Origin: Escherichia phage Cyrano
Direction: 5' to 3' (one strand)
Sequence record: OV696614
Length of the DNA: 64,000 nucleotides
The notes under the pieces are model-generated. The model searched no databases. It had not been told where the DNA came from and saw nothing but the letters and a program-made list of their open reading frames with translations. The position numbers and the translations under genes were made by a program. This document shows, piece after piece, positions 17,701 to 61,029 of this stretch. Position 1 is the first letter of the stretch. Each line of letters begins with the position of its first letter.

Positions 17701-18263
17701 GTCCGTTCGAAATGAATCCTAAGCGTTCTGCCGAAATCAACGTACTCATGACACGTATGGCGGCTGAAATGGGCTTGGGTGAGGAGTTGATACGCCCGAC
17801 TATTGGTATTAAACCCAAAATCATGATCATTCTGGACAATGCGAACGGCAATGACGCTCGTACCGGCTACTTCATGGAGAACGGATACGACGACTTTAAG
17901 GCAAAACTACTGACAGTTGGAGATCTGCGCATGGGCGATCTTTATGTCACGGGTGTTTGTAAGAAGGTTAAGGACAAAGAGAAAGACTATACCAAAGACG
18001 AGATAGGCCAGTTCACAGACTTTATGCGGGAAGAAATTAATCTTGTACGACCAACCTACATTTTGACGTGTGGTAGTCGTTCAACCGCACTATTTAACAA
18101 TAAGAGTAAACCATCAGATCTGATTGGTCGTAAGGAGTACTTCCCAGAGCTTGATGCAACCGTCTTCTACGGATTTAACCCGAATATCCTGTACTTCCGA
18201 CCGGAAGAAGGAGAGCGACTGGAGGCCATTCTGGCTGATATCGCGGAGACAATAAATAAGTAA
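14757..18263 (+). CDS. dnaE: DNA polymerase III alpha subunit (DnaE-type, family C)
   Basis: 1168 aa; GPGRGSSAGSLVAWCIGIT palm motif; N-terminal PHP-like region lacks the usual His motif. Confidence 0.85.
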   Translation: MKALMVRTDFSLGESALKAENAVKIAREAGYTAVISADSMNIASVIPLQRAAGDDMAVICGVKLNIVDDPTYEHRAKLAKESMRCMESLERGRNYSFTALIKNEQGYRDICELMTAANTREQFYFVPRLSLEQLVSTYAKGNIILLTSDIGSVFQRNDFAKIISTLITAGGKDNFYSVVYPHPTPFYDQINVRAMKVASALKIEPVAFYPAYYESIDDADIKDIAHMVTNNIKIDQPHRLRIPHQRDNAINGRRHLLEALKAFSVRMDVPVTAAMASTTQDSIIDACTWRWHELPPALPKMADDEPATLMKLAVAGLRKRLTTKEFGYTPPASENRVYVERLKYEMDTLTRLGFCGYFLMVRDLMNHSRETGIPVGPGRGSSAGSLVAWCIGITNVDPIRHGLLFERFINPERLDLPDADLDFSQARRHEVIEYLNERYGEDYVAGIPNFTYLGAASALRDTARIYGVESADMAVSKELKNVEDDSLPLEELREQLASLDKYATKYPDAFNAACKLQSLMRGFGRHAAGMIVAGVPLTERTPVERRGDARCIAFDKRYCEAMGLIKLDVLGLATLDLLDSAKRYIKESTGEDINLDAIPLDDRKVLDGFAAGYTQGVFQLESGPMRKLLKDLGGGIEPMSFKTVVATTALFRPGPIQSGMLDDYVSVAKGFMAPHSIHPRLEEVTRETNGVLLYQEQIMQSSRVLAGFSMAEADALRSAIGKKNMDKMKAIGSDFVERAQAGWVTLSLKNGGTVEVHKHAKLDCSDGKRRSYSEAISDGIDYVEIVSEQEGLSKEKAQEIWDAFEKFGGYAFNKSHSVAYSLISYQSMWLKTHYPAEFFAAALTILGEDKHQGLVKDALTYGIRVLPPDVNVSSNRIEIRTLEDGSQALYAPFSAVKGCSENGCQAIMRAREKVGGKFESVAQFDEAVEKRACNSRVRESLHKVGAFASIEPGSLPATDPERLRDQAELMGNLIIDAVKASRPFEMNPKRSAEINVLMTRMAAEMGLGEELIRPTIGIKPKIMIILDNANGNDARTGYFMENGYDDFKAKLLTVGDLRMGDLYVTGVCKKVKDKEKDYTKDEIGQFTDFMREEINLVRPTYILTCGSRSTALFNNKSKPSDLIGRKEYFPELDATVFYGFNPNILYFRPEEGERLEAILADIAETINK

Positions 18264-18269
18264 TAAAGA

Positions 18270-18295
18270 AAACCCGCCTGTTGGCGGGTTTATAA
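18270..18295 (+). terminator. Rho-independent terminator after dnaE-like gene
   Basis: aaacccgcctgttggcgggttt hairpin then T-rich tail. Confidence 0.7.
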
Positions 18296-18566
18296 AGAAT
18301 TATGGCGCTTGTTGAGGAAGTCACTCCTCTTACGCACTTTGTTTTGCCATGCCGGCAGTTAGCTTCTGCCTTTGACTATTCATGCGGCAACCCCGCATTT
18401 CGCCACAATGGGCAATTCACTTTTATGGAATAAACTGGCCGTTGTGTCGATTTAATTAGCATGGCCTTACCATGCTAATTTATTCAACTTGTACAATCCT
18501 ACAAATCTATCCACTCAGGCTTACACCGTCTTCGTTATTGTAGAAATGAGGATCATCAGCGTTGAA

Positions 18567-18782
18567 TCAGCTTAGAGCAACGACATTTGCTGCTGCTGGG
18601 CCTTTAGCACCATTCTCGATAGAGAATTCGACCTGCTGGCCTTCTTCCAAAGTGCGGAAATTATTACTCTGAATTGCCGAAAAATGTACAAAAACATCTT
18701 TACTGCCATCAGCAGGAGAAATAAAGCCAAAGCCTTTATCAGAGTTAAACCATTTTACTAAACCAGTCATTTTATTAGACAT
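18567..18782 (-). CDS. cold-shock protein, CspA family
   Basis: Start moved to internal ATG giving about 70 aa: [30 protein letters not shown] (RNP1/RNP2 motifs). Confidence 0.85.
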
Positions 18783-19111
18783 AGATATTACCTTCTTAAT
18801 TTTGTGAGCCACATAGTGCGGCGAGAATTTGATCTGTATAGATTGGGACTTACTTAGGCACTTAAGGAGGAGACTCACGAAGAAGGGAAATCAGAAGATA
18901 ACACTGAACTGAGACTGCTTTACTAAAACTGCTTACATAAGGTCTGTCTTGCAAACCAACGATGCTATTAACGCATACCCCTTCTTTTCATGCAACCTTT
19001 ATTTTTCAAAGATAACTAATTTTTGTCACCATTGGTTTAGTAAACGTTAACGAACCAGACGATGCCAGACACCTTTACAGAGAACAGATGCCCGCCAATT
19101 GGCGGGCATCA

Positions 19112-19675
19112 TTATGCGCATTTCGCAATATCTTTGCGGCGTTTAATCAGTTTCTCCGCAATTTGCTCTATTTCGTTGAAATCTTTCGAGACGCTGTTTC
19201 GAAGCGCCAGATTCCATTTACTCAAAGTTCGGGCATTTTGGACAATTTGATCGCCCTCTTTAAGTCGTCCGTTATTCATGAGCCATTCAGCCACATCAGC
19301 CCAATCCCAGAGAGGAGACTGGCCTTTTATGCGTTGTACAGGGCAAGGGAAGTCGCCGCTTCCGCGCTTACCGTCTTTGAGCAACGCCACTGCCTGGCGA
19401 GACAGGTCTGTCAGTTCCGCGATATCGCTTAAGCCCACAAGAGCCGAGTCGACGGATTCAACAATTGCACCGATACCGGCTGATTCAATATTGTCGACCG
19501 CAGATGCGATAGCTGCATCAAGTGATTGTGCTTCGCGGTCAAATTCTACATAGACGGAGTTTCCATATGCGCAAATTAGCGCATCGTCACAGCCGTTTTG
19601 GTACAGCGCGTCTTCCAGTCCTTCCGTCTCATACGATACGCCTGAGAGCGTCAGAGTGAAGTTATAAAGCGCCAT
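19112..19675 (-). CDS. hypothetical protein with probable HTH
   Basis: Start moved to MALYNF with AAGGA RBS; central LSDIAELTDLSRQAVAL resembles an HTH. Confidence 0.4.
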   Translation of the reverse strand: MALYNFTLTLSGVSYETEGLEDALYQNGCDDALICAYGNSVYVEFDREAQSLDAAIASAVDNIESAGIGAIVESVDSALVGLSDIAELTDLSRQAVALLKDGKRGSGDFPCPVQRIKGQSPLWDWADVAEWLMNNGRLKEGDQIVQNARTLSKWNLALRNSVSKDFNEIEQIAEKLIKRRKDIAKCA

Positions 19676-19735
19676 AGTTTTCCTTTGAAGATAGTTGGAC
19701 AGTTTCTGCAAAAGGCGGCTAATGCCGCCTTGAAA

Positions 19736-19960
19736 TCATTTACAACGATCAACCATTCGTTTGATCTGTTTGGCATGGTTTTCGGGATTACCCGGAGTCG
19801 ACCATACGCTCATTTGGTGAGTTTTGTGTTCACCTTCTGGATTACCGCATCGCAGTCTGCAAAAACAATGTGCAGCACCACCAGCAGCTACCCAGATCCA
19901 GCCTTTACTTAATGCATAGTCAATGGCTGCTTGAATATGCTTATTCGGATGTTGCTTCAT
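19736..19960 (-). CDS. hypothetical small Cys/His-rich protein
   Basis: 74 aa, upstream of and co-directional with 19112-19675. Confidence 0.35.
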   Translation of the reverse strand: MKQHPNKHIQAAIDYALSKGWIWVAAGGAAHCFCRLRCGNPEGEHKTHQMSVWSTPGNPENHAKQIKRMVDRCK

Positions 19961-20213
19961 TCGCCTCAGATAATAGTATTCTATTCACAGTGTTGACATC
20001 TGTCAACGGCGACTGAATTTCATCCGTTCATGCCACACCCCATCCATCTCATGTATGTGACCTAAAGATGGTCAGCACAGCTTACCAAAATAAGACAACT
20101 AATTATCTTCGGTGATCTCAATATCTTCCCCTGAACAAAGTTGACATGACGCCATAAACCCGTTCTCTGTTTGATATAATTGATACAGATTTTATAAGTA
20201 GGAACCTATTAGA

Positions 20214-20645
20214 GTGAACACTGATATTTTTTCTAAAATCATGGCCGATCTGGAGTTCGACCGCGACAACCTTGAGGAAGTATGGCGTAAACAGCCACGG
20301 CTTTTAATGGAGTATGGGTCAAAACTAGCGCAGGCAGATCGAGATGTCGCAGAGGCAAAACTTAACCTTGAAGCTGTTGAAGCAAAGCTATACGACACAG
20401 AGCGTAAGAACTTGAGTATGAACGGCATTAAGTTCAACGAGTCTGTACTGGACGCTAAGGTTAAAACAAACCCACAGTATCTGTCTAAACGGCAGAAGTT
20501 GGATGAAGCACGGCACATCGCAGACATATACAAACATGCTGTCGCCGCCTTTTCGCATCGCCGAGACATGATCGTTCAGGCGTCAAAGATGGCCATCGTT
20601 GAATTAGAGCGATTAGGCTCTGAACGCTTTATTACTCCCCGTTGA
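20214..20645 (+). CDS. hypothetical protein
   Basis: 143 aa from a GTG; coiled-coil-like composition. Confidence 0.4.
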   Translation: MNTDIFSKIMADLEFDRDNLEEVWRKQPRLLMEYGSKLAQADRDVAEAKLNLEAVEAKLYDTERKNLSMNGIKFNESVLDAKVKTNPQYLSKRQKLDEARHIADIYKHAVAAFSHRRDMIVQASKMAIVELERLGSERFITPR

Positions 20646-20762
20646 TTTTTGATAGATAATAAGTAAGTACTGATCTATCATTTAACAGCTCGAAAGAGCC
20701 ACGAATGAACGAAAGCCCAACGCGCATAGCGCCATCGGCCAAATCACAACAAGGAGAAACAC

Positions 20763-21791
20763 ATGTCTAAGACATTACTTGATTTGCTTAACAAAACTCG
20801 TGAAGACATTGCCGCCAAACGTGGCAACAACGTTGATCTGACTCGCTTAAAAGACGGCGTCAACTATATCCGCATCTTCCCGAATAAAGACGACCCAAAC
20901 GGTAAGTTCTTCCAGACTTTCGGTATGCACTACGTTAAGTATCAGAACGAGGAAGGTAAAGAAGCAACCAACGCTTATATTTGTGAGCAACATACTCACG
21001 GTCGCGCTTGTCAGCTATGCGAAATGGTGATGGAAGGTCGCGCTCGTCACAAGGGTAACAAAGCAATGGAAGAACGCATCGGTCAAATGCGTGCCACTCC
21101 TCGCTACCTGGTCAACGGCATTCTTTCTGCTCGTGAGGATTTCGCAGATGCTGAGAAATGCCAGTTAATCGAGCTGCCGTCTACTGTATTCGATGATATC
21201 TGCAAAGCAATCACCGAAGACATCGCTGATGATATCGGCAATCCACTGAGCAAAGAGGAAGGCTACGCATTCCTGATTAAACGTACTGGCTCTGGTCGCG
21301 ATACCAAATATGACGTCTCGCCTAAGCGTAAAGTCTACAAAGGCGATATCGAAGATAAATTCTGGAACACCCAGCATGATCTGATCGCATACGCAAATCA
21401 GGCTGATGAAACTCGTCTTCTGTCGACAGTTCGCACTATGGGTCGTCTGATTGGCATCGCTGCACCAACTGCCGCAGCATCTGCACCAGCAATTTCCTCA
21501 ACCGCGAAAACATCGGCTGCGGCACTACCTGGATTTGGCTCTGTCACTGGTCATACAGAAGGAGCGACGGCTGTAGCAACCGCGCACACACCGGCTTCTG
21601 AACCAACCAGTCTGGTTGATGAAGAAATCCTCCGTGCCGTTGAAACTGAATTTAAACCAGAGGCAAGTTCCGCTGCCGTTGCCGTATCAGTCAAAGAGTC
21701 TGAAGCAGTCGCAGCGACATCTGTAGCAACCGCATCTGCGACGGAAGATGAAGGTCTGGATGACCTACTGAGAGAGCTGGACTCTCTGTAA
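20763..21791 (+). CDS. single-stranded DNA-binding protein, T4 gp32-like
   Basis: 342 aa; IRIFPNKDDP resembles gp32 N-terminal block; zinc motif CEQHTHGRACQLC; Ala/Ser-rich acidic C-terminal tail. Confidence 0.7.
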   Translation: MSKTLLDLLNKTREDIAAKRGNNVDLTRLKDGVNYIRIFPNKDDPNGKFFQTFGMHYVKYQNEEGKEATNAYICEQHTHGRACQLCEMVMEGRARHKGNKAMEERIGQMRATPRYLVNGILSAREDFADAEKCQLIELPSTVFDDICKAITEDIADDIGNPLSKEEGYAFLIKRTGSGRDTKYDVSPKRKVYKGDIEDKFWNTQHDLIAYANQADETRLLSTVRTMGRLIGIAAPTAAASAPAISSTAKTSAAALPGFGSVTGHTEGATAVATAHTPASEPTSLVDEEILRAVETEFKPEASSAAVAVSVKESEAVAATSVATASATEDEGLDDLLRELDSL

Positions 21792-23064: not shown

Positions 23065-25404
23065 ATGGCAAAAGGAAAATCCGCACTGGCACTTGCTCTG
23101 AAAAAGAAAATCGGTAGCAACGACGAAATTCAGAAAGTAACTCATTGGATTGACACAGGCTTTCCTCCGTTAAACAAAGCTATTTCCGGTCGTTACGATG
23201 GCGGTTTCCCATGTGGTCGTATCGTAGAAGTATTCGGGCCACCAAGCGCGGGGAAATGTGTTACCGCAGACACCATGCTGCTGACGGAGCGTGGAATGGT
23301 AACAGTGAAAGAACTGTTTGAGATTGAGGGGCACAAAGCAACATGCACTACTCGCGATGTAGAGCATAACGTTGGACTCATCAATGAAAATGGCGTGATA
23401 GAGAAGACCTCACACCTGACATGGAACAACCGTCGCAAATTCAAGCGTATTAAGCTGGCATCAGGCGGTTATATCGAGGCTACGTTCCGTCACCCAATCC
23501 GTGTGGTTGACGACTTAGGTAATGTCGTCTGGCGACATGCTGAAAAAATCAGTGTAGGCGACACGATTCCTTCAATGGTTGGCACACATCAATTCGGCGA
23601 TCAGCACCTGGATGCCAATATCGCAAAACTGATGGGCTATTTAATTGCTGACGGATACGTGGCCTCTGAAAATTCAGTGAATTTTTCTAACACAGATCCT
23701 TTCATCAAGGATGAGTACTACCGCCTCATTTCGCTGGTATCAGACAAGATGCCAGTTACGAGAAAACATAACGGCTCGGAAGACCATGTGCTGTTTAGCA
23801 AAGAGGTGCGTTCGCTGCTTTTTAAAGAGTATGGTCTGGAGTATGAGAAAGCTGCTGGCAAGCAGGTTCCGTTGAGTGTGCGTCGCGCCAATAGCGAGGC
23901 TCAAATTGCATTCCTTCGCGGCTACTTTGAGCTGGAATGCCACGTCAATGATGGTCGCTGCATTGAGGTTGTGAGCGCGAGTGGGCTGCTGCTACAGCAA
24001 ATTCGCCTCATGCTCCTGAATCTGGGGATTACGTCAACTATCTCTGAAAAACACGTCGCGGGTTATGAAAATACATATTACCGGCTGTCATTCAGTGGCT
24101 CTAATTACGACCTTTTTCTGTCAACGATTGGTTTCGAATCTCCGGCACGTTTATCAGTGGCAACCAAACGGGACATTGGTTTTGACCGCACTTACTCAGG
24201 CTATGTTCCGCACATCAGCGGCTTAGTGAAATCACTCTACGAGTCGCTCACCAAGACCACCCGTGAAGACTACGCTCTGGTAGACCACGTTATTGGCCGC
24301 GGCGATCGTGTCGGAATAGACAAACTGCGAGAAATCTATGTCTCCTTCATTGGCAGAAAGAATCGTTTTAACGAGCATCTGTTTGCACAACTGGCAGCGG
24401 TAATTGGCTCTAACTTGTTCTACGACGAAGTCGTGGCTATTGAGGAAGGTGAAGCACCAACGTTCGACGTAGCGATGCCGGAAACACACTCTTTCTGGTC
24501 TAACGGGATTATCAGCCACAACACATTCCTTGCAACAGCAGCGATGATCTCCGCTCAAAAACAAGATGGTCTGGCGGTATTCCTCGATCATGAAAACAGT
24601 TTTGACGTTGGCCTGGCTGTAGCCAATGGCCTGAACGCAGATGAGGATGACGGTCAGTGGGTATACAAGCAGCCAGATACCTTCGAAGACTCTGTAGAGT
24701 TGATCGGCACAATACTTAAATTGGTTCGTGATGAAGAGCTTATCCCCGAATCAGCACCTATCTGTATCGTGGCTGACTCTCTTGCGTCTATGGTTCCGAA
24801 CTCCAAAGCCGAGAAGTTCGAAAAGATGGCTGAAGGCACTGCCAAAGACAAAGATCAGCTAAACATGAACGACAATACGGCACTGGCTCGTGCGACGAGT
24901 GCGAACTTCCCTACTCTGGCTTTGTGGGCACGCAAATACAACGCCTGCATCATCTTCTTGAATCAGGTTCGCACAAAAATCGGTGTAATGTTTGGCGACC
25001 CTACTACGTCGCCAGGTGGAGATTCACCGAAGTTTTACGCTTCTGTGCGCATCCGTCTCGGTGCATCGGTGATGAAGGATGGGAAAGAGAAGATCGGCCA
25101 GGACGTAGGCGCAGAATGCATCAAAAACAAAGTTGCACCACCGTATGGCAAATGCACCTGGAAATTCTACTTCGATCCTACTCGTGGCCTCGACGTTATC
25201 GAGTCGCTCGTCGAGTACATGCTGGAAGAAGGATACCTGCCAAAGAACGCCAGCGGGCGAGTTGAAATTGGTGACAAGAAATACACCAAATCGCAGATCG
25301 TCGACATGTATCGGGAGAAGCCATTAGCAGAAATCATTGCTGCGTTACAGGCGATAGATGACCGACGAGAGAAGACATCACCAACAGAAGAACTAGAAGA
25401 TTAA
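23065..25404 (+). CDS. recA: RecA-like recombinase interrupted by an intein
   Basis: 779 aa; extein GRIVEVFGPPSAGK..TFLATAAMISAQ resembles the RecA P-loop region GRIVEIYGPESSGKTT; 422-aa insertion inside the Walker A motif. Confidence 0.85.
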   Translation: MAKGKSALALALKKKIGSNDEIQKVTHWIDTGFPPLNKAISGRYDGGFPCGRIVEVFGPPSAGKCVTADTMLLTERGMVTVKELFEIEGHKATCTTRDVEHNVGLINENGVIEKTSHLTWNNRRKFKRIKLASGGYIEATFRHPIRVVDDLGNVVWRHAEKISVGDTIPSMVGTHQFGDQHLDANIAKLMGYLIADGYVASENSVNFSNTDPFIKDEYYRLISLVSDKMPVTRKHNGSEDHVLFSKEVRSLLFKEYGLEYEKAAGKQVPLSVRRANSEAQIAFLRGYFELECHVNDGRCIEVVSASGLLLQQIRLMLLNLGITSTISEKHVAGYENTYYRLSFSGSNYDLFLSTIGFESPARLSVATKRDIGFDRTYSGYVPHISGLVKSLYESLTKTTREDYALVDHVIGRGDRVGIDKLREIYVSFIGRKNRFNEHLFAQLAAVIGSNLFYDEVVAIEEGEAPTFDVAMPETHSFWSNGIISHNTFLATAAMISAQKQDGLAVFLDHENSFDVGLAVANGLNADEDDGQWVYKQPDTFEDSVELIGTILKLVRDEELIPESAPICIVADSLASMVPNSKAEKFEKMAEGTAKDKDQLNMNDNTALARATSANFPTLALWARKYNACIIFLNQVRTKIGVMFGDPTTSPGGDSPKFYASVRIRLGASVMKDGKEKIGQDVGAECIKNKVAPPYGKCTWKFYFDPTRGLDVIESLVEYMLEEGYLPKNASGRVEIGDKKYTKSQIVDMYREKPLAEIIAALQAIDDRREKTSPTEELED
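23257..24522 (+). mobile_element. Intein with LAGLIDADG homing endonuclease domain
   Basis: Begins with Cys right after GK of the P-loop, ends SHN followed by Thr that completes GKT; LAGLIDADG-like blocks LMGYLIADGYV and FLRGYFELECHV. Confidence 0.8.
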
Positions 25405-45466: not shown

Positions 45467-46060
45467 ATGATTGCAGCCGAAAAAATCAAACAGCGAAAGC
45501 GCGACAACTCTCTTCGTGACCTCTGGAGAACACCTGACTGGCTGTTTTCTGCCATTCAACGTTATCTTGGAGTGACATTTGATGTTGACGTTGCCTGCAA
45601 CAAGGACAATGCGAAGCTGCCTAATTTCATAGGCGTTGAGCGTGATGCTTTGAAATCTGAATGGGGACAGCCAGGTACAATTGCCTTCCTCAATCCACCC
45701 TACTCCAAAATCTCCCCCTGGATTGATGCGGCTATACGTGAGCAGGCTCGCGGAGTTACAACAGTGATGCTAATTCCTCAATCCCTCGATACAAAGTGGT
45801 ATGAGCGTGCAACAGAGTGTGCGAATGAGACGATTATTCTGTCTGGTGGCCGCGTAGCGTTTGTCGAGCCTGACGTCAATTTGGGTCAGGTAGAAGTAAA
45901 CATCAACCCCGGTGGCAGTATGCTCGTTGTTTTTCGAGGATTCTGTCAGGACGCTGGGCACTCTATAAGCAAGATCCCTTTGGACGTCATGAAAAGTCTG
46001 GGAGGGTATGATCCTGCGAATGTGATCAGGAAAAAAAGACCATCAAAGAAGGCTGCTTAG
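45467..46060 (+). CDS. DNA N6-adenine methyltransferase (phage Dam-like)
   Basis: 197 aa; catalytic motif FLNPPYS. Confidence 0.7.
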   Translation: MIAAEKIKQRKRDNSLRDLWRTPDWLFSAIQRYLGVTFDVDVACNKDNAKLPNFIGVERDALKSEWGQPGTIAFLNPPYSKISPWIDAAIREQARGVTTVMLIPQSLDTKWYERATECANETIILSGGRVAFVEPDVNLGQVEVNINPGGSMLVVFRGFCQDAGHSISKIPLDVMKSLGGYDPANVIRKKRPSKKAA

Positions 46061-49308: not shown

Positions 49309-49878
49309 ATGTGCAAGAAATGCAAAGCGATAGCTGATGAACAAAACGCCTTATTCGAAGAAATGGATGCTAATGAGCTGGTCAAAATGTTAGCCATTCT
49401 TCGAGGAATAGAAGACGTTTCCATATTTGAGAGAGTGGTTACAGCACTTAATTTTGAGTCCACCTTTGAAGAGCCAACTCAGGTTGTAGCTTTAGCACAT
49501 CATTTCGGTGTTCATTATCTTGCTGAAAAAGAGCGCGCTGATAAGTTGCAGGCGACTTTGGATATGGTGAGCGAGACTCAACGAACTGATGACACTAACA
49601 AGAGTGAGGCGATTATTGCCAGCAAAGATCGTGAAATTGCTGGGCTTAAATCCTCTCTAACGATGTTGATGTCTGCGTTCAATCTTATGTCTTCTCAGGC
49701 GGGTTATAAAATGCCATCACTAAACAGCGATGATCCGATGGCCGTTCGTCAGCTTTTGGGAGCAATGGCCGACCAACTCGACGACACAAAGAGTCGCCTT
49801 GAAGACATGATGCGTGAGTTAAGCCATCGACATAACCTCGCAACACAACCACACAAAGTCTTTCAAAGCTCTAATTGA
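49309..49878 (+). CDS. hypothetical protein
   Basis: 189 aa; N-terminal CKKC. Confidence 0.45.
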   Translation: MCKKCKAIADEQNALFEEMDANELVKMLAILRGIEDVSIFERVVTALNFESTFEEPTQVVALAHHFGVHYLAEKERADKLQATLDMVSETQRTDDTNKSEAIIASKDREIAGLKSSLTMLMSAFNLMSSQAGYKMPSLNSDDPMAVRQLLGAMADQLDDTKSRLEDMMRELSHRHNLATQPHKVFQSSN

Positions 49879-49932: not shown

Positions 49933-50214
49933 ATGGCATACGGTACAGGGATTTACAACAATAAAGGAATTAACGTTACTGGCTTCCTTACACCTATTTT
50001 TTTTCTTGATCGATTTACGGCGTCATCAGGCTCTAAGACGTACTCTAATCCGCCACCGGGTAAATCACTACATGCCGTGTGGTCATTAATGCCTCTTAAC
50101 AACGACAACTACATCAATTTACCTGTTCCAAATGTTACTATTAATGGAAATACGGTTAGTTGGTCAAATTTATATACGGGGCTTGGTTCTTACATATACA
50201 CATACTGGGGATAA
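49933..50214 (+). CDS. hypothetical protein (AT-rich cassette)
   Basis: 93 aa; Asn/Tyr/Thr/Gly-rich; noticeably AT-rich local DNA. Confidence 0.4.
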   Translation: MAYGTGIYNNKGINVTGFLTPIFFLDRFTASSGSKTYSNPPPGKSLHAVWSLMPLNNDNYINLPVPNVTINGNTVSWSNLYTGLGSYIYTYWG

Positions 50215-50216
50215 TT

Positions 50217-50831
50217 ATGTTCGGGATGTCAATTACTCAATCAGATGGAAGTTTGTGGATGAGTCCAGAATTTACTCCGCAAAATCTGATTAATAAAGGG
50301 ACAATGTCTACATCTAAAGGTTCTGTTTTTCAAACATCAATCCCATCAAACAAATCATGTTTTTTTTTCATAAAAAGCAGTAATAAGGCGAACATGATGT
50401 TTATTCATGAGCATAGTAACGGATACAATGCTCTCAGATTGCATCAGGTAAATGGTAGCCCCGGAACAATAACAGTTTATGCTTTTTCTGATATGGTGTT
50501 ACCACATTCTGGCTATGGCATTGCCATGTATAACAGCGCAGGCGCAATGGTGTATCACGGTGAGATGATGCCCCTTGATGCGAAACTTATCACTATTTCT
50601 GACCCTCAATTTACAATAGATATGGGGTATCCATGTGCGGTAATGCCTGCTATGGTTGGAGTATATAACTATAGACGAACCGATTACGACAGACCTGTCT
50701 ATGTAACAATGACAGGTGCAACTGGAAACCAAGTATATAACGGTAAATGGTATTCCGGTAATGTCACATGGGATATTAAGAAGATTTATACAAACAAAAT
50801 TCTGGTGATAAATACCTCCAAGTATGATTAG
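50217..50831 (+). CDS. hypothetical protein (AT-rich cassette)
   Basis: Start moved to ATG 3 nt after the upstream stop; about 204 aa; beta-rich Tyr/Asn/Thr composition. Confidence 0.45.
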   Translation: MFGMSITQSDGSLWMSPEFTPQNLINKGTMSTSKGSVFQTSIPSNKSCFFFIKSSNKANMMFIHEHSNGYNALRLHQVNGSPGTITVYAFSDMVLPHSGYGIAMYNSAGAMVYHGEMMPLDAKLITISDPQFTIDMGYPCAVMPAMVGVYNYRRTDYDRPVYVTMTGATGNQVYNGKWYSGNVTWDIKKIYTNKILVINTSKYD

Positions 50832-50934
50832 CCAATGCCTTTATTTGAAGGATTGCCTGTTTATTTCTATTTAGTACCTTTTCATTTTTGAAATAATTGC
50901 ACCATTAAACAAATCACTTCTTAATGGTGCAATT

Positions 50935-52620
50935 ATGAATACAGCCCTTTCCATCATCGACGATGCCAACTCAAACACTGCTATCGACTATCGGCAGGAA
51001 ATGAACGTCATCCACGAAATTGTGGCCGAGTGCGAGAAAGAGATCGCTTTCATGTACCAGGTTCACGACTTCGTTTATGGCGACGAACGCCACAACATGA
51101 TTAATCGCCTGCTGCAACTGAACCACCGACCAGATGAAGAACGCTCACGTTTGAATCGAGCTTGGCTGGATAAAGTCGATCTGGAATGGGTGAAACAGAA
51201 TATTTGGGCCGAGTACTGGAGGAAGGTCACGGACATGACTAACGTTTTGCTGATCATGCCAGCTTCCCGTCGAGATGAGTGGCGCGAGCAGTTTATAGAG
51301 GGCAAACAGGAAGTCATCAAAACTGACAGAACCGGCTACCAGATGAAGGTTAAAGAGTTCGTTGGTGTACCGGAGTTCAAAGCAGAAACGGTCATACCCA
51401 CGATGCTTAATTTGCTGAATGACAGGCACAAATATCTCTCTGAGCGCGTGTATGGCTTGTTTAAGGCGCTGAGTCCTGCGCACAAGACAAATAAGACAAA
51501 CGGTTTCAGCGAGCGGCTGATAATCGCTGACTGCATTTCTGATTTCTGGCGGGACAGCGTTAGCGTGAACTATCGCAAAGAGGACTACATCGACGATCTG
51601 CGTGTCTTGCTTCATTTCTTCGCGCACAAAGAATTTATTACCATCAACCGCACTGCTGAGGTGCTATCAGCTGCGTATCGGGCAAACGACTGCCAGACCG
51701 GTGACTGGATGAACGTCGATGGAAATCTGATGCGCGTGAAGATGTTCAAGAACGGCAACGTTCACTTTGAAATACATCCTGACGTGGCCTGGAAGTTGAA
51801 TGAGGTGCTGGCTTACAGTATGCCTGCTGCAATTCCCGCGCCATGCCGAACTGCGCCAAAAACACGGGCACCAAAGCAGTTCGGGTTAATCCAGAAGACG
51901 ATCTCCGTGCCGGTTCGCACTGCGCTTCGTGACGGGCGATTGAGCAAAGACAAAGGCGTATGGTACTTCTCTGATTCAGCTCTCCAGAAGTCGCAGGTGG
52001 AAGAGCTTGAGCGCACACTGAGCTTCATTGGCGGCGTGCAGGAGAAAAAGCACTGGCAGTTCCCGTATGACATCGGCCATACGCTAAATACGATTGTGGC
52101 TACCGGTTTAATACCGGATACAAAATCACACCAGTTCTACCCTACCCCACGCTTGATTGCTGAGTACGTTGCCAGAGCCACTGAATTGAAGCCTGGTGAG
52201 AAGCTGCTTGAGCCTCAAGCCGGACGTGGGGATCTTCTGGCCTATATTAACGCCGATCTGGAAGATGTTACCTGCATAGAAATCGCACCTCTCTTCGCTG
52301 ATATCCTGCGTGGAAAAGGGTATACGAACACGATTTGCTGCGACTTCATAAAGTGGTCTGAGGACAACGCAGGTTATCAGTTCGACAAAATCGTTATGAA
52401 CCCGCCGTACTCGCTTGGTCGTCATAGAGAGCACACGCTGGCTGCGCTGGGGCATCTGAAAGTCGGCGGGCGTCTTGTAGCAGTATTGCCGGGCACTGCG
52501 CCAATCCTGAGCTGGATGACGATGGATAATTACGTTTATGCCAAAGGGAAGTCGTTTACCAACGAGTTTGAAGATACCGGGATCACAGTCAGCGTATACG
52601 TTTTCAAACGCGTTAAATGA
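50935..52620 (+). CDS. N6-adenine DNA methyltransferase with large N-terminal domain
   Basis: 561 aa; C-terminal SAM-binding LEPQAGRGDL and catalytic MNPPYS; N-terminal about 380 aa unassigned. Confidence 0.65.
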   Translation: MNTALSIIDDANSNTAIDYRQEMNVIHEIVAECEKEIAFMYQVHDFVYGDERHNMINRLLQLNHRPDEERSRLNRAWLDKVDLEWVKQNIWAEYWRKVTDMTNVLLIMPASRRDEWREQFIEGKQEVIKTDRTGYQMKVKEFVGVPEFKAETVIPTMLNLLNDRHKYLSERVYGLFKALSPAHKTNKTNGFSERLIIADCISDFWRDSVSVNYRKEDYIDDLRVLLHFFAHKEFITINRTAEVLSAAYRANDCQTGDWMNVDGNLMRVKMFKNGNVHFEIHPDVAWKLNEVLAYSMPAAIPAPCRTAPKTRAPKQFGLIQKTISVPVRTALRDGRLSKDKGVWYFSDSALQKSQVEELERTLSFIGGVQEKKHWQFPYDIGHTLNTIVATGLIPDTKSHQFYPTPRLIAEYVARATELKPGEKLLEPQAGRGDLLAYINADLEDVTCIEIAPLFADILRGKGYTNTICCDFIKWSEDNAGYQFDKIVMNPPYSLGRHREHTLAALGHLKVGGRLVAVLPGTAPILSWMTMDNYVYAKGKSFTNEFEDTGITVSVYVFKRVK

Positions 52621-52681: not shown

Positions 52682-53386
52682 ATGAGCAACCTCCAGTTAG
52701 AGCATTTTAACGTCACAGGACATTCCGATTTTCCTTTCAAGTTTACATTGAAAGGTTATGCAGAGGATGCGGTAGGCCAGATCATTATTGATAAAGGCAT
52801 CGTTAAGTTTGAGGGGAATTTTGATGAATCCGCGAAAACATTCATAGACTTCGTTGCCAAACGTTGGAGCGAGCAATGGAAAGACCTGGAAAAGCGCGCT
52901 AGTGAGTTTGATCGGTTCATGGATGCAATGGATACAGCAAAAGAGGCTATTGCTGCCGGGACTCCGTTAGATCTGGAGTCACTTTTCAACGGCGAAGTGG
53001 CCTCTGCGATGTTCGCTACCATGTTCGCGGGTGAGTTCGTCCGCAGCGGTGCCAAAAACTACCTTGAGCTGGATTACAACGTCCCTGCAATTGGCGATTT
53101 CGTCGTTACCATCCAACGCAAAGAAGGTAAGACGCCAGGTGAACGCGTCGCAGAACTTGAGGCTGTTGTGGATCAGCGTAACGGAGAGTGTGACCGTTTG
53201 ATCAACGAGCTTCATGCACTTCGGGAAGAAAGAATATGCGAGGGTAGTAATACACGTAATGCAGCGGATATCTACTTCCAGTTAGTTGAGGAATGCCAGA
53301 TTCCACCAGGTGGCTCTCTTGTCGATTACGTCGGACATTTAATGGCGGAAGTTAACTCCAGCCATAAAGATGGTGAGGTGCGCTGA
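52682..53386 (+). CDS. hypothetical protein
   Basis: 234 aa; GAGAAAAACACATG start context. Confidence 0.45.
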   Translation: MSNLQLEHFNVTGHSDFPFKFTLKGYAEDAVGQIIIDKGIVKFEGNFDESAKTFIDFVAKRWSEQWKDLEKRASEFDRFMDAMDTAKEAIAAGTPLDLESLFNGEVASAMFATMFAGEFVRSGAKNYLELDYNVPAIGDFVVTIQRKEGKTPGERVAELEAVVDQRNGECDRLINELHALREERICEGSNTRNAADIYFQLVEECQIPPGGSLVDYVGHLMAEVNSSHKDGEVR

Positions 53387-53766
53387 TGTTTGGCATTGAC
53401 GCACAGCGTATAGCCGCTTTTGCAAAAAGCCCTCTTGATAATCCCTTGTCTCGTAGTGAGCAAATGGAGCTGGCAAGGCTTTTTCTTCACATTCAAAAAC
53501 AGGCAGACATTTTCAATAACATGCCTAATCAACCTATTCTGGATGGTCACATCCAGATGGTCATTAACAGTCATGAGAAAGGCTGGGCTGCAATCGTCCC
53601 CTGCACAATTACATACAGGTTGGCTAAAGAGGTTCAAGAGTTTCGAAAAGTCAGTGTCGAATCAGAGTCTACCAAAGCCGCAATAAACACTCTTATTCGC
53701 ATGGGGTTCACATGGACCGGTGGAGCCTACTGGCAAGCACCTCACCCCATTTTATCCGGCAATTAG
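53386..53766 (+). CDS. hypothetical protein
   Basis: 126 aa; ATGA-coupled start. Confidence 0.4.
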   Translation: MFGIDAQRIAAFAKSPLDNPLSRSEQMELARLFLHIQKQADIFNNMPNQPILDGHIQMVINSHEKGWAAIVPCTITYRLAKEVQEFRKVSVESESTKAAINTLIRMGFTWTGGAYWQAPHPILSGN

Positions 53767-57310: not shown

Positions 57311-57700
57311 ATGGGCTTCCCTTCTCCTGCGGCGGATTATGCTGAGAGCCGTATTTCTCTTGATCAGCAGATAATTAGACATCCTTCAGCGACCTACTTC
57401 ATGAGGGCAGCTGATAGTCATCATCGTGAGGGAATATTACAGGGTGCATTGCTGGTGGTCGATTCCTCACTTACCCCGGTTGATGGTTCTCTGCTTGTAT
57501 GCGCTCTGGATGGGGAATATCGCGTAAAAAGATACCGGAAGTACCCACGTCAGCATCTGGAGGATTTAAGAACCGGTAAGAAGGAAGCATTGCCAAAGGA
57601 TGACGATGGATGCACGGGCAGCAATGCCGTGTTTGGTGTGATCACTCACATTATCAACGACGCAAGAAGTGGCGAGTTTGATGATTGTCCCGTGATGTAG
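57311..57700 (+). CDS. humD: UmuD'-like protein (P1 HumD-like, pre-truncated)
   Basis: 129 aa beginning MGFPSPAADYAE, i.e. at the position of the UmuD Cys24-Gly25 cleavage site; S24 peptidase-like core. Confidence 0.8.
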   Translation: MGFPSPAADYAESRISLDQQIIRHPSATYFMRAADSHHREGILQGALLVVDSSLTPVDGSLLVCALDGEYRVKRYRKYPRQHLEDLRTGKKEALPKDDDGCTGSNAVFGVITHIINDARSGEFDDCPVM

Positions 57701-57737: not shown

Positions 57738-58838
57738 TCACACTGCGCGGAATGCGATTTCGCCAGGTATTACTTCACCTTGCCAATACATTTGGGCAGC
57801 AACGCGATCTGCGAGGTCACGATAAATAGCCGTAAATTCGCTATCTGGACGACTAATAACGGTTGGTGTTCCGTTATCCAGATCTTCACGAAGAGAGATA
57901 TGAAGTGGCATTTGGCCTAACAACTGCGTGTTGTATTTCTCGGCCAGTTTCTGTGCGCCACCGGTGCCAAAAATTGGCTCGTGATGACCGCAGTTACTGC
58001 AAATATGCACACTCATGTTTTCGACGATACCCAGTACCGGCACTTCGACTTTTTCGAACATCACAATGCCTTTCTTCGCATCGATCAGCGCGATGTCTTG
58101 CGGCGTAGTTACCACAACCGCACCAGTTACAGGAATGTTCTGCGCCAGCGTCAACTGAATATCACCAGTGCCCGGCGGCATATCGAGAACGAGATAGTCC
58201 AGATCAGGCCACAGTGTTTCCTGCAACATCTGCATCAGCGCCTTGCTGGCCATCGGTCCACGCCACACCATCGCATTGTCGTCAGTGACCAGATAACCAA
58301 TTGAATTGGTTGCCAGGCCATGAGACATGATAGGTGCCATGTGAGTACCGTCAGGTGAGGTTGGACGTTGGTTTTCCGCGCCCAGCATGGTTGGAATTGA
58401 TGGCCCGTAGATATCGGCATCCAAAATACCAACTTTCGCACCTTCAGCCGCCAGCGCCAGCGCCAGGTTTACCGCCGTGGAGGATTTACCCACGCCGCCT
58501 TTACCGGAGCTGACCGCAATGATGTTCTTCACGCCATTAATGCCTGGTTGGTTTTTGACGCGCTTAAGCGTGGCAATGTTGTACGACAGCTTCCAGTCAA
58601 TAGCCTTTGCGCCAGTGATACGGAGCAGATCACCACTACATTGCTCTTTCAGATCTTCAAAAGGCTTATTCCACACGAAAGGCATGATTAGTTCGACATG
58701 CAGTGTGTCATCCATCAACGCAACATGGTGTAACGCTTTAAGCGTAGTCAGGTTGTGTTTCAGGGTTGGGTGCTGAAAATTAGCCAGCGTACCGGCTACC
58801 ATTGCTCTCAGGGCATCCGGCGATTTGGACTCGCTCAT
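57738..58838 (-). CDS. mrp: Iron-sulfur cluster carrier ATPase Mrp/ApbC
   Basis: 366 aa; P-loop SSGKGGVGKSST, CxxC motif ICSNCGHHEPIFG; enterobacterial Mrp-like; divergent from metG. Confidence 0.9.
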   Translation of the reverse strand: MSESKSPDALRAMVAGTLANFQHPTLKHNLTTLKALHHVALMDDTLHVELIMPFVWNKPFEDLKEQCSGDLLRITGAKAIDWKLSYNIATLKRVKNQPGINGVKNIIAVSSGKGGVGKSSTAVNLALALAAEGAKVGILDADIYGPSIPTMLGAENQRPTSPDGTHMAPIMSHGLATNSIGYLVTDDNAMVWRGPMASKALMQMLQETLWPDLDYLVLDMPPGTGDIQLTLAQNIPVTGAVVVTTPQDIALIDAKKGIVMFEKVEVPVLGIVENMSVHICSNCGHHEPIFGTGGAQKLAEKYNTQLLGQMPLHISLREDLDNGTPTVISRPDSEFTAIYRDLADRVAAQMYWQGEVIPGEIAFRAV

Positions 58839-58995
58839 CCCGTCTCCTTTATTTTAATTTGCGCAATTGTCGCCTTGTAGTGTACTCCAGCTACGACATT
58901 TAATCATTTATGAGAAATGCTGTTATCACATGGCAGACATAAGGCCATTTTGTTACTATCAAGCCCCTTTTCACTACAAAGAAGTAATGCCTACT

Positions 58996-61029
58996 ATGAC
59001 CCAAGTCGCGAAGAAAATTCTGGTGACGTGCGCGCTGCCGTACGCTAACGGCTCAATCCACCTCGGCCATATGCTGGAGCACATCCAGGCTGATGTCTGG
59101 GTTCGTTACCAGCGAATGCGCGGCCACGAGGTTAATTTCATCTGTGCCGACGATGCCCACGGTACGCCGATCATGCTGAAAGCACAGCAGCTTGGTATCA
59201 CACCGGAGCAGATGATTGGCGAAATGAGTCAGGAGCATCAGACTGATTTCGCAGGCTTTAACATCAGCTATGACAACTATCACTCGACGCACAGCGAAGA
59301 GAACCGTCAGTTGTCTGAGCTTATCTATACTCGCCTGAAAGAGAACGGTTTTATTAAAAACCGCACTATCTCTCAGTTGTACGACCCGGAAAAAGGCATG
59401 TTCCTGCCGGATCGTTTTGTGAAAGGCACCTGCCCGAAATGTAAAGCGCCAGATCAATACGGCGATAACTGTGAAGTCTGCGGCGCAACATATAGCCCGA
59501 CTGAATTGATCGAGCCGAAATCGGTGGTTTCTGGCGCTACCCCGGTAATGCGTGATTCCGAACACTTCTTCTTTGATCTGCCTTCTTTCAGCGAAATGTT
59601 GCAGGCATGGACCCGCAGCGGCGCGTTGCAGGAGCAGGTGGCAAACAAAATGCAGGAGTGGTTTGAATCTGGCCTGCAACAGTGGGATATCTCCCGCGAT
59701 GCGCCTTACTTCGGTTTTGAAATTCCGGACGCGCCGGGCAAATATTTCTACGTCTGGCTGGACGCGCCGATTGGCTACATGGGTTCCTTCAAGAATCTGT
59801 GCGACAAGCGCGGCGATACCACCAGCTTCGATGAATACTGGAAGAAAGACTCCACCGCCGAGCTGTACCACTTCATCGGTAAAGATATTGTTTACTTCCA
59901 CAGCCTGTTCTGGCCTGCCATGCTGGAAGGCAGCAACTTCCGCAAGCCGACCAACCTGTTTGTTCACGGCTATGTGACGGTGAACGGCGCGAAGATGTCC
60001 AAGTCTCGCGGCACCTTTATTAAAGCCAGCACCTGGCTGAATCATTTTGACGCTGACAGCCTGCGTTACTACTACACTGCGAAACTCTCTTCGCGCATTG
60101 ATGATATCGATCTCAACCTGGAGGATTTCGTTCAGCGCGTGAATGCCGATATCGTGAACAAAGTGGTTAACCTGGCCTCCCGTAATGCAGGCTTTATCAA
60201 CAAGCGTTTTGACGGCGTGCTGGCAAGCGAACTGGCTGACCCGCAACTGTACAAAACCTTTACTGATGCCGCTGAAGTGATTGGCGAAGCATGGGAAAGC
60301 CGTGAATTTGGTAAAGCTATCCGTGAAATCATGGCATTGGCTGACCTGGCTAACCGCTATGTCGATGAACAGGCTCCGTGGGTGGTGGCGAAGCAGGAAG
60401 GACGCGATGCCGATCTGCAGGCGATTTGCTCTATGGGCATTAACCTGTTCCGCGTGCTGATGACGTACCTGAAGCCGGTACTGCCGAAACTGACTGAACG
60501 TGCAGAAGCATTCCTGAATACAGAACTGACCTGGGATGGCATCCAGCAACCGTTGCTGGGCCATAAAGTGAATCCGTTCAAGGCACTGTATAACCGCATC
60601 GATATGAAGCAGGTTGAAGCACTGGTGGAAGCATCCAAAGAAGAAGTGAAAGCCACAGCCGCACCGGTAACTGGCCCACTGGCTGACGACCCGATTCAGG
60701 AAACTATCACCTTTGACGACTTCGCCAAAGTTGACCTGCGCGTGGCGCTGATTGAAAACGCAGAGTTTGTAGAAGGTTCTGACAAACTGCTACGCCTGAC
60801 GCTGGATCTCGGTGGTGAAAAGCGTAATGTCTTCTCAGGCATCCGTTCTGCTTATCCAGACCCACAGGCACTGATTGGTCGTCACACCATTATGGTGGCT
60901 AACCTGGCTCCGCGTAAAATGCGCTTCGGTATCTCCGAAGGCATGGTGATGGCTGCTGGCCCCGGCGGGAAAGATATCTTCCTGTTAAGCCCGGATGCTG
61001 GTGCTAAACCAGGCCACCAGGTTAAGTAA
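58996..61029 (+). CDS. metG: Methionyl-tRNA synthetase
   Basis: Start set at [26 protein letters not shown] (HIGH motif), KMSKS present, zinc-knuckle CPKC..CEVC, C-terminal tRNA-binding domain; 677 aa. Confidence 0.9.

What the first reader, a model, noticed from the sequence alone, without database searches (positions are those of the whole stretch)
50935..52620. Second orphan N6-adenine methyltransferase fused to a large unassigned N-terminal domain
The C-terminal about 180 aa carry SAM-binding (EPQAGRGDL) and catalytic (NPPY) motifs. The preceding about 380 aa have no motif I recognise and could be a target-recognition or regulatory domain. Two distinct adenine methylases in one element suggests layered protection against different restriction systems.
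Basis: partly seen in the sequence, partly recalled or inferred. Interest (0 to 1): 0.45.

Follow-up and report, generated by a model that had tools for sequence, protein, structure and literature searches.

The report
Phage-plasmid orphan adenine methylase with DUF4942
This is a real but already catalogued gene of SSU5-type phage-plasmids: a lone (no restriction partner) N6-adenine DNA methyltransferase whose large front half is the known but uncharacterised Pfam domain DUF4942, so it is ordinary for this element although nobody has shown what the front half does.

Summary
The ORF 50935-52620 (+, 561 aa) is real. The reported motifs are present: EPQAGRGDL at aa 426-434 and NPPY at aa 489-492, preceded by FYPTP at aa 401-405. 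That order is the gamma (TaqI/EcoKI/DarB-like) arrangement.

The window is the replication and DNA-metabolism half of an SSU5/pHCM2-like phage-plasmid. The gene is 98-99.5% identical to genes in E. coli plasmids that RefSeq annotates as "DUF4942 domain-containing protein", and 90% identical to SSU5_095 "DNA methyltransferase". It matches PHROG 6263 end to end. It is found in 564 plasmids.

The "unassigned" N-terminal part contains Pfam DUF4942 (E=1.6e-20). This two-module architecture is stable, with more than 600 clusters at 50% identity. A permuted form (methylase first, DUF4942 second) occurs in phages of Firmicutes and Bacteroidetes.

The DUF4942 region is basic, has invariant polar residues, and has no fold match in the PDB. 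No nuclease lies beside the gene here, in two distant prophages or in two distant phages.

Best reading: an orphan phage N6-adenine DNA methylase that uses DUF4942 as its DNA-binding or target-recognition module, most likely to protect itself from restriction. Activity, specificity and role are untested. Already known; low interest.

The parts
50935..52620 (+). Complete gene for the 561-aa DUF4942-methyltransferase protein (orthologue of SSU5_095; named YdiA in a Salmonella Typhi record)
   Evidence: ORF list. 90-99.5% nucleotide identity to annotated genes in SSU5 and E. coli plasmids. PHROG 6263 matches full length.
50935..51201 (+). aa 1-89: variable, acidic N-terminal helical region (two long helices; first ~15 residues disordered)
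   Evidence: AlphaFold2 secondary structure. Low conservation. pI 4.9. No Pfam hit.
51202..51864 (+). aa 90-310: conserved DUF4942 core. The Pfam match itself covers aa 140-295 (nt 51352-51819). The region is basic and mixed alpha/beta.
51481..51492 (+). H183-K-T185-N186 loop: H, T and N are invariant across the family and the loop is modelled with low confidence. KTNK is also present in the permuted phiFN37 protein.
   Evidence: (pLDDT below 50 at residues 183-186).
51865..52119 (+). aa 311-395: small alpha/beta linker domain directly upstream of the methylase core. It contains the near-invariant IGG (G366).
   Evidence: AlphaFold2 models. Conservation. PHROG 9133 matches aa 328-560 as one unit.
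52120..52617 (+). aa 396-561: Rossmann-fold N6-adenine methyltransferase catalytic domain, motif order X-I-IV, ending at the C-terminus with no domain after it
52135..52149 (+). Motif X, FYPTP (the 'TP' motif of EcoKI/TaqI-like methylases)
   Evidence: Q400 invariant; Y402, P403, T404 and P405 86-93% conserved. Role of the TP motif as described in PMC5512222.
52210..52236 (+). Motif I, EPQAGRGDL (AdoMet-binding loop)
   Evidence: E426, P427, A429, G430 and G432 are 96-100% conserved. Aligned to M.TaqI LEPACAHG.
52399..52410 (+). Motif IV, NPPY (catalytic)
   Evidence: 127 of 130 full-length family representatives carry NPP[YFW].
50893..50936 (+). 16-bp perfect hairpin covering the Shine-Dalgarno-like GGUG and the first two bases of the start codon. 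Specific to the E. coli lineage.
   Evidence: RNA fold -20.6 kcal/mol, z=-5.8. Absent or weak in SSU5 and Klebsiella relatives.
45467..46060 (+). The other methylase of the element: 197-aa Dam-family (PF05869) phage N6-adenine methyltransferase. Context only; not part of the gene in question.
   Evidence: Pfam E=2.5e-38. PHROG 111. RefSeq name 'phage N-6-adenine-methyltransferase'.

Best explanation
The gene encodes a stand-alone (orphan) S-adenosylmethionine-dependent N6-adenine DNA methyltransferase. It is a near-core gene of the SSU5/pHCM2 group of phage-plasmids. The C-terminal 166 aa form a compact TaqI/EcoKI/DarB-type catalytic domain (FYPTP, EPQAGRGDL, NPPY) that has no target-recognition domain of its own. 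The conserved, basic DUF4942 region in front of it (aa ~90-310, joined by a small linker domain) most likely supplies DNA binding and target recognition, that is, the job done by the C-terminal recognition domain in classical gamma-class enzymes. The gene sits in the early replication and nucleotide-metabolism module. From there the enzyme would methylate the element's own DNA as it replicates. DNA that is packaged, or that enters a new host, would then resist restriction enzymes whose sites overlap the methylated sequence, alongside the separate Dam-family methylase 5 kb upstream. Shown here: gene, family membership, domain layout, fold of the catalytic part, absence of a nuclease partner. 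Inferred: DNA as substrate, the recognition role of DUF4942, and the anti-restriction purpose.
For: Catalytic domain:
- Motifs in gamma order.
- Best PDB sequence hits are M.TaqI, another adenine-specific DNA methylase (7vru) and EcoR124 HsdM.
- hhalign probability 95% to the methylase domain of the P1 anti-restriction protein DarB.
- The same ~125-aa core matches methylase segments of giant phage proteins (PHROGs 15406, 11358, 10691). Iyer et al. assign such segments to the EcoKI/TaqI family by the TP and NPP(Y/F) motifs (PMC5512222).

Coupling of DUF4942 to the methylase:
- 620 clusters at 50% identity match the N-terminal part. Nearly all of the 150 listed are 500-580 aa with the match at the N-terminus, and 127 of 130 full-length ones carry NPP[YFW].
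- The same two modules occur in the opposite order in Fusobacterium phage phiFN37 (methylase aa 6-126, DUF4942 aa 275-472). Full-length relatives of that protein are in Bacillus phage SPR and in Faecalibacterium, Tunturiibacter, Tenacibaculum and Riemerella phages. In phiFN37, DUF4942 occupies exactly the position of the gamma-class recognition domain.
- The DUF4942 core is basic across the family (median pI 9.1, against 5.9 for the catalytic domain).

Orphan status and phage role:
- No nuclease or defence model in the neighbours.
- Distant homologues sit in early or nin-type regions of prophages and phages, often beside other orphan methylases and never beside a nuclease.
- The gene lies with nrdAB, thyA, folA, exonuclease and RNase H.
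- It is present in 564 plasmids, against 755 that carry the element's dnaE region. The ratio is about 85-100% within Escherichia, Klebsiella, Enterobacter, Salmonella and Citrobacter.
Against: - No methylation activity, substrate or recognition sequence is known for any family member. Five literature searches found nothing experimental.
- A recognition domain would be expected to vary where specificity varies. Yet DUF4942 carries polar residues that are invariant or nearly so in 148 divergent members (S180, H183, T185, N186, D221, R223, D262, H277, N289). That fits a single shared specificity, sequence-independent DNA handling, or a second catalytic site at least as well.
- Anti-restriction is inferred from context only.
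Confidence: 0.6

Rival explanations
1. It is a DNA adenine methylase, but its purpose is epigenetic control of the element's own life cycle (replication initiation, packaging-site use, lysis/lysogeny or plasmid copy control) rather than protection from restriction.
For: The gene is near-core in the SSU5 group. That is more typical of an essential life-cycle function than of a swappable anti-defence gene. It lies among replication genes. Its DUF4942 residues are invariant, which suggests one fixed target. In the E. coli lineage a strong hairpin buries its ribosome-binding site, which suggests tight dosage control. From general knowledge: phage P1 needs Dam methylation at pac and in promoter regions, and the P1 record marks such sites.
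Against: Homologues are scattered among unrelated phages with different replication and packaging modules, and often sit beside several other orphan methylases. That pattern is typical of anti-restriction cargo. No conserved target motif or regulated promoter was identified.
Confidence: 0.2
2. The catalytic domain methylates RNA or protein (for example host rRNA, tRNA or a translation factor) rather than DNA, and DUF4942 recognises that substrate. The protein would then be a host-takeover factor.
Confidence: 0.1
3. DUF4942 is a second enzymatic or effector domain (a bifunctional protein) and not a recognition module. It could, for example, act on DNA ends or nucleotides, or bind a host restriction or defence protein.
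For: Polar residues typical of active sites are invariant or 98-99% conserved (S180, H183, T185, N186, D221, R223, D262, H277, N289). The fold is unlike any solved recognition domain. Small stand-alone relatives of about 250-300 aa exist in phages (PHROG 38825; two BFVD hits).
Against: The domain is almost always covalently joined to this one methylase type, in either order. That argues for a shared task on one substrate. The catalytic domain has no other DNA-binding module. The domain is basic. No match to any catalytic Pfam family, even at E<=10.
Confidence: 0.1
4. It is the modification half of a restriction-modification or other methylation-based defence system carried by the element.
For: PADLOC gives partial hits of the catalytic core to mad2 of MADS (E=1.2e-15) and to Type II and IIG methylase models.
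Against: These hits cover only aa ~394-522. Flanking proteins hit no nuclease, defence or PADLOC model. Neighbours are not conserved between distant homologues and none is a nuclease. The flanking genes are small phage proteins of unknown function.
Confidence: 0.03

Closest known systems
SSU5_095 of Salmonella phage SSU5 and the RefSeq 'DUF4942 domain-containing protein' of pHCM2/SSU5-like phage-plasmids (PHROG 6263; named YdiA in a S. Typhi record)
   Same: Orthologue. Same length (561 aa), same position in the genome, 93% amino-acid identity to SSU5 and 98-99% to E. coli plasmid copies.
   Different: Nothing substantive. The E. coli lineage has a strong hairpin over the start site that SSU5 lacks.
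Gamma-class N6-adenine DNA methyltransferases (M.TaqI; also M.BseCI, CamA, Type I HsdM)
   Different: No recognition domain follows the catalytic core, and the protein ends there. The accessory DUF4942 region precedes the core and resembles no solved recognition domain. No restriction partner.
Phage P1 DarB and the methylase domains of phage and plasmid 'polyvalent proteins' (Iyer et al. 2017, PMC5512222)
   Same: The catalytic core is homologous (hhalign prob 95%, E=2.9e-8 to DarB aa 79-228). The same core matches several giant phage proteins. Both are carried by phage-plasmids or phages with a presumed anti-restriction role.
   Different: No SF2/SNF2 helicase, no other effector domains, 561 aa against 2255 aa. 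The gene lies in the early replication module and not among virion genes, so there is no sign of it being packaged and injected. DUF4942 replaces the short LPD36 region.
M.EcoGIX / M.BceJIII plasmid single-strand-specific orphan methylases (Fomenkov et al. 2020, PMC7736820)
   Same: Orphan m6A methylases on mobile elements of enterobacteria that protect incoming DNA from restriction. A possible functional analogue.
   Different: Those enzymes are beta-class with a DPPY motif and lie in conjugative leading regions. This protein has gamma order, NPPY and DUF4942, on a non-conjugative phage-plasmid. Not the same family.
Permuted methylase-DUF4942 proteins (Fusobacterium phage phiFN37 CDS0160; relatives in Bacillus phage SPR and in Faecalibacterium, Tunturiibacter and Riemerella phages)
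   Same: The same two modules: catalytic core 35% identical (E=1e-18) and a DUF4942 with the KTNK motif.
   Different: Domain order is reversed (methylase N-terminal, DUF4942 C-terminal). These proteins lack the long N-terminal helices.

Membership tests
Pfam DUF4942 (PF13708) | Score above the curated gathering threshold (25 bits) | tested here: met
   74 bits, E=1.6e-20, aa 140-295 against profile positions 35-187 of 190. 77 bits on the isolated segment.
PHROG 6263 (phage 'DNA methyltransferase') | Full-length match to the family profile | tested here: met
   E=1.1e-299, residues 1-561 against profile 1-548 of 548.
Gamma-class (TaqI/EcoKI-like) N6-adenine DNA methyltransferase | Motif order X (F/Y-x-T-P), then I (AdoMet loop), then IV (NPP[YF]) | tested here: met
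   FYPTP at 401-405, EPQAGRGDL at 426-434, NPPY at 489-492. All 86-100% conserved in 148 relatives.
Gamma-class (TaqI/EcoKI-like) N6-adenine DNA methyltransferase | Class I Rossmann methyltransferase fold closest to DNA adenine methylases | tested here: inconclusive
Gamma-class (TaqI/EcoKI-like) N6-adenine DNA methyltransferase | Target-recognition domain C-terminal to the catalytic domain | tested here: not met
   The protein ends with the catalytic domain, whose last strand is aa 551-559. The only accessory region is N-terminal. In the permuted phiFN37 relative, DUF4942 does sit C-terminally.
Gamma-class (TaqI/EcoKI-like) N6-adenine DNA methyltransferase | Demonstrated transfer of methyl to N6 of adenine in DNA at a defined sequence | not testable with these tools
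   No experimental report found for any family member.
Restriction-modification system methylase | Cognate restriction endonuclease encoded adjacent to, or fused with, the methylase | tested here: not met
   Neighbours hit no nuclease or defence model in Pfam, PADLOC or PHROGs. None is seen beside distant homologues. No nuclease domain in the protein itself.
DarB-like methylase-helicase polyvalent proteins | EcoKI/TaqI-type methylase domain with TP and NPP(Y/F) motifs | tested here: met
   hhalign prob 95%, E=2.9e-8 to P1 DarB aa 79-228. Family definition from PMC5512222.
DarB-like methylase-helicase polyvalent proteins | SF2/SNF2 helicase fused C-terminally, multi-domain giant protein, virion-gene neighbourhood | tested here: not met
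   The protein stops at aa 561 right after the methylase. No helicase domain. Neighbours are early and DNA-metabolism genes.
M.EcoGIX/M.BceJIII single-strand-specific plasmid methylases | Beta-class motif order with catalytic DPPY | tested here: not met
   The paper states beta family and DPPY. This protein has gamma order and NPPY.
MADS defence system (mad2 methylase) | Full-length mad2 match plus the other mad genes nearby | tested here: not met
   Only aa 394-522 match mad2 profile positions 265-400 of 492. The four flanking ORFs and the upstream Dam-family methylase submitted to PADLOC give no mad-gene hit; the Dam methylase matches only orphan and Type II methyltransferase models.

The most novel reading that the evidence does not exclude
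DUF4942 is a structurally new DNA-handling module. Its invariant polar loop (S180, H183, T185, N186, together with D221, R223, D262, H277 and N289) would give this widespread phage methylase family an unusual mode of action. Examples are very relaxed or sequence-independent adenine methylation, structure- or strand-specific methylation of replicating DNA, or a second chemical step. That would make it a broad-spectrum anti-restriction enzyme, not an ordinary site-specific methylase.
Probability: 0.2. Interest if true: 0.5.

Novelty: already known. Interest (0 to 1): 0.22.

Why it matters
SSU5/pHCM2-like phage-plasmids are common in E. coli, Klebsiella, Salmonella and Enterobacter, and some carry resistance genes. 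A near-core methylase may help them cross restriction barriers between hosts. The wider DUF4942-methylase family (more than 600 clusters at 50% identity, in phages of several phyla) has no determined specificity, structure or role. A single methylome experiment on this gene would annotate hundreds of plasmids and phages and would assign a function to a Pfam DUF. Beyond that, the finding adds nothing unexpected: the gene, its domains and its orphan status are already in public annotation.

Tried and rejected
1. Link to M.EcoGIX, the best-studied enterobacterial plasmid orphan methylase. Rejected: it is beta-class with DPPY.
2. Link to the MADS defence system through the PADLOC mad2 hit. Rejected: only the catalytic core matches and no mad neighbours are present.
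4. Pfam scan of three N-terminal segments at E<=10. Only DUF4942 was found. PDB sequence searches found nothing for the N-terminal part.
5. Literature searches for DUF4942, SSU5 or pHCM2 methylases, and phage-plasmid orphan methylases. No experimental data.
6. Equivalence of aa 311-395 to the LPD36 region of DarB. Reading the DarB N-terminus (GYTGEGGIGG motif) against this protein's IGGV gave no convincing match. Left open.
7. Whether the start-site hairpin is a conserved RNA element. Rejected as family-wide: it is weak or absent in SSU5 and Klebsiella relatives, with no compensatory changes, and the arm motif occurs nowhere else in the window.
8. Promoter and terminator scans around the gene gave fewer sites than shuffled controls.

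Full report
**Observation**

The window has an uninterrupted ORF at 50935..52620 on the + strand, encoding 561 aa. EPQAGRGDL is at aa 426-434 and NPPY at aa 489-492. A third diagnostic motif, FYPTP, lies at aa 401-405. The ORF is a real gene:
- It is 97.6-98.3% identical at the DNA level to three Escherichia phage records (two CMS-2020a records and PhiR41_1) and 90.3% identical to gene SSU5_095 ("DNA methyltransferase") of Salmonella phage SSU5.
- It matches 564 plasmid records, the best at 99.5%, where RefSeq calls it "DUF4942 domain-containing protein".
- The protein database holds full-length relatives from 99% down to about 32% identity.
- PHROG 6263 ("DNA methyltransferase") matches residues 1-561 with E~1e-299.

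**What the element is**

Annotation of SSU5 and of the near-identical E. coli plasmid pAVS0747-B (IncFIB, non-mobilizable, 105 kb) shows that the window covers the replication and DNA-metabolism half of an SSU5/pHCM2-type phage-plasmid. Annotated genes include repA, dnaE, a DnaB-like helicase, ligase, nrdAB, thyA, folA, an exonuclease, a Dam-family methylase, RNase H, and then this gene.

The gene is close to core for the group. It matches 564 plasmids, against 755 for the element's dnaE region. Counts per genus are nearly equal for Escherichia (210/229), Klebsiella (186/216), Enterobacter (81/93), Salmonella (47/46) and Citrobacter (24/26).

**Anatomy**

Pfam places DUF4942 (PF13708) at aa 140-295 (74 bits, cut-off 25). 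It gives only sub-threshold hits for the methylase part. Nothing else appears in the N-terminal segments, even at E<=10.

An AlphaFold2 model built from 22 diverse homologues (mean pLDDT 83, pTM 0.71) shows four parts; conservation and charge figures are:
- aa 1-89: long helices, variable and acidic.
- aa ~90-310: a conserved mixed alpha/beta region that contains DUF4942.
- aa 311-395: a small alpha/beta linker domain.
- aa 396-561: a Rossmann domain that runs to the C-terminus.

A family profile searched against PDB sequences gives M.TaqI as best hit (E=7.6e-4), followed by another adenine-specific DNA methylase and EcoR124 HsdM.

Profile comparison with phage P1 DarB aligns aa ~388-522 to DarB residues 79-228 with probability 95% and E=2.9e-8. 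The same core matches methylase segments inside several giant phage proteins. Iyer et al. place these DarB-like domains in the EcoKI/TaqI adenine-methylase family on the basis of the N-terminal TP motif and NPP(Y/F) (PMC5512222). This protein has both.

The catalytic part is therefore a gamma-order, TaqI/EcoKI/DarB-type N6-adenine methylase core.

**The N-terminal region**

An exhaustive phmmer search with aa 1-343 found 620 clusters at 50% identity. Almost all of the 150 listed are 500-580 aa with the match at their N-terminus. 127 of 130 full-length representatives carry NPP[YFW] near the C-terminus. The "fusion" is thus the normal, stable architecture of a large family.

In an alignment of 148 members, the DUF4942 core has residues as conserved as the catalytic motifs:
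- W95, L179, S180, H183, T185, N186, H277, N289 and L292 are invariant.
- D221, R223, W258 and D262 are 98-99% conserved.

The H183-K-T-N186 loop is the one poorly modelled spot in the full-length model. The core is basic across the family (median pI 9.1), whereas the catalytic domain is acidic (median pI 5.9).

**Permutation**

In Fusobacterium phage phiFN37 the same two modules occur in the opposite order. The methylase core starts at residue 6 with FYPTP (35% identity, E=1e-18). DUF4942 lies at aa 275-472 and carries the KTNK motif.

tblastn with the phiFN37 protein finds full-length relatives (at least 90% of its length, 26-48% identity) in Bacillus phage SPR and in Faecalibacterium, Tunturiibacter, Tenacibaculum, Leeuwenhoekiella and Riemerella phages. 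I confirmed the domain order by Pfam only for phiFN37.

In that order, DUF4942 sits where classical gamma-class enzymes carry their target-recognition domain. Three observations make a DNA-binding or recognition role the most economical reading:
- The catalytic core has no recognition domain of its own.
- The two modules are obligately coupled.
- The DUF4942 core carries positive charge.

The extreme conservation of polar residues is unusual for a recognition domain. It leaves room for a single shared specificity, sequence-independent DNA handling, or a second activity.

**Context and orphan status**

The flanking ORFs match no nuclease or defence family in Pfam, PADLOC or PHROGs. They are:
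- 50160-50831, a PHROG "membrane associated protein".
- 52682-53386, 53386-53766 and 49309-49878, all of unknown function.

Distant homologues lie in early or nin-type regions of other phages and prophages, never next to a nuclease:
- A Variovorax prophage, immediately followed by an N6_N4 methylase.
- An Enterobacterales prophage, with two other methylases nearby.
- Pseudomonas phage MR15, annotated "putative restriction alleviation protein" and flanked by further methylases.
- Aeromonas phage 56, between ant and ninG.

The element's other methylase, at 45467-46060, belongs to the unrelated Dam family PF05869. No further methylase is annotated in the corresponding 64 kb of the reference plasmid.

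**Mechanism proposed**

Shown here:
- The gene is real and belongs to the DUF4942-methylase family.
- Its catalytic domain is a gamma-order TaqI/DarB-type core.
- It has no nuclease partner.
- It sits in the early DNA-metabolism module of a phage-plasmid.

Inferred:
- It methylates adenine N6 in the element's DNA.
- DUF4942 provides DNA binding and target selection.
- The biological pay-off is resistance to host restriction on infection or establishment, complementing the Dam-family enzyme.

Rivals:
- The same enzyme used for life-cycle regulation (0.2).
- An RNA or protein methylase (0.1), kept alive by the METTL5/KsgA/Erm structural hits.
- DUF4942 as an independent effector or enzyme (0.1).
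- Membership of a restriction or defence system (0.03).

**Comparison with known systems and literature**

The enzyme is not related to M.EcoGIX/M.BceJIII, which are beta-class DPPY enzymes of conjugative leading regions (PMC7736820). They are a possible functional analogue. It shares its catalytic core with DarB-type polyvalent proteins but lacks their helicase, size and virion context. The PADLOC mad2 hit covers only the core. Searches for DUF4942, SSU5 or pHCM2 methylases and phage-plasmid orphan methylases returned no experimental work on this family.

**Verdict**

It overstated the novelty of the N-terminal part, which is Pfam DUF4942 and is already the basis of the RefSeq product name. 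The gene is already known and annotated, and only its biochemistry is unknown. Interest is low (about 0.2). The residual interest lies in DUF4942 itself: widespread in phages, no solved fold relative, invariant polar residues and a permuted architecture.

**Seen in passing**

- A 16-bp perfect hairpin at 50893-50936 buries the GGUG ribosome-binding sequence and the AU of the start codon (-20.6 kcal/mol, z=-5.8). It is identical in pAVS0747-B but weak or absent in SSU5 and Klebsiella relatives.
- The element carries full-length apbC and metG genes at 57738-61029. About 200 related plasmids share them.
- ORF 23065-25404 is a RecA-like protein interrupted by an intein with a LAGLIDADG endonuclease.

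Noticed in passing
window 50893-50936 (+): A perfect 16-bp hairpin with a 12-nt loop lies immediately upstream of the methylase gene. It sequesters the Shine-Dalgarno-like GGUG and the first two bases of the AUG. RNA MFE is -20.6 kcal/mol, z=-5.8 against shuffles. It is identical in pAVS0747-B, reduced to about 5 bp (CACCA/UGGUG) in SSU5 and a Klebsiella relative, and absent in pJN2-26. It could be a lineage-specific translational throttle or a palindromic operator.
   Followed up: partly
window 57738-58838 (-) and 58867-61029 (+): Full-length housekeeping-type genes apbC/mrp (NUBPL/ParA-type Fe-S carrier, E=2.4e-102) and metG (methionyl-tRNA synthetase, E=4.6e-166) sit divergently on the phage-plasmid, in a local GC rise to 0.51. 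The same pair is on 207 plasmids, mostly non-mobilizable E. coli SSU5-like ones. Identity to the chromosomal copies and any function (for example a back-up synthetase or homology for integration) were not examined.
   Followed up: partly
window 23065-25404 (+): A 779-aa ORF combines RecA (PF00154), an intein splicing domain and a LAGLIDADG homing-endonuclease domain. It is an intein-interrupted RecA-like recombinase. RefSeq labels the orthologue only 'LAGLIDADG family homing endonuclease'.
   Followed up: partly
L008:2248-3825 (Fusobacterium phage phiFN37); relatives in Bacillus phage SPR and other phages: A circularly permuted version of the family, with the methylase core first and DUF4942 second. 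Full-length relatives are found in phages of Firmicutes, Bacteroidetes and Acidobacteria, whereas the DUF4942-first order was seen in Proteobacteria phages and prophages.
   Followed up: partly
window 11137-13245 and 13341-14576 (+): A CobT-like VWA protein (702 aa) lies next to a dynein-related AAA_5 ATPase (411 aa), just upstream of the element's dnaE. This is a CobT/CobS-like (VWA + AAA) pair in a phage replication module, of unknown role.
   Followed up: no
window 18263-20763: The segment just downstream of dnaE appears variable between related plasmids. Only 62 of 755 plasmids cover at least 80% of window 16600-20000, and the best matches annotate a cold-shock gene cspG there.
   Followed up: no
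window 57311-57700 (+): A short (129 aa) S24 peptidase-like ORF (LexA/CI-type C-terminal domain, E=1.6e-9) lies directly beside apbC. It is a possible truncated repressor or UmuD-like protein.
   Followed up: no
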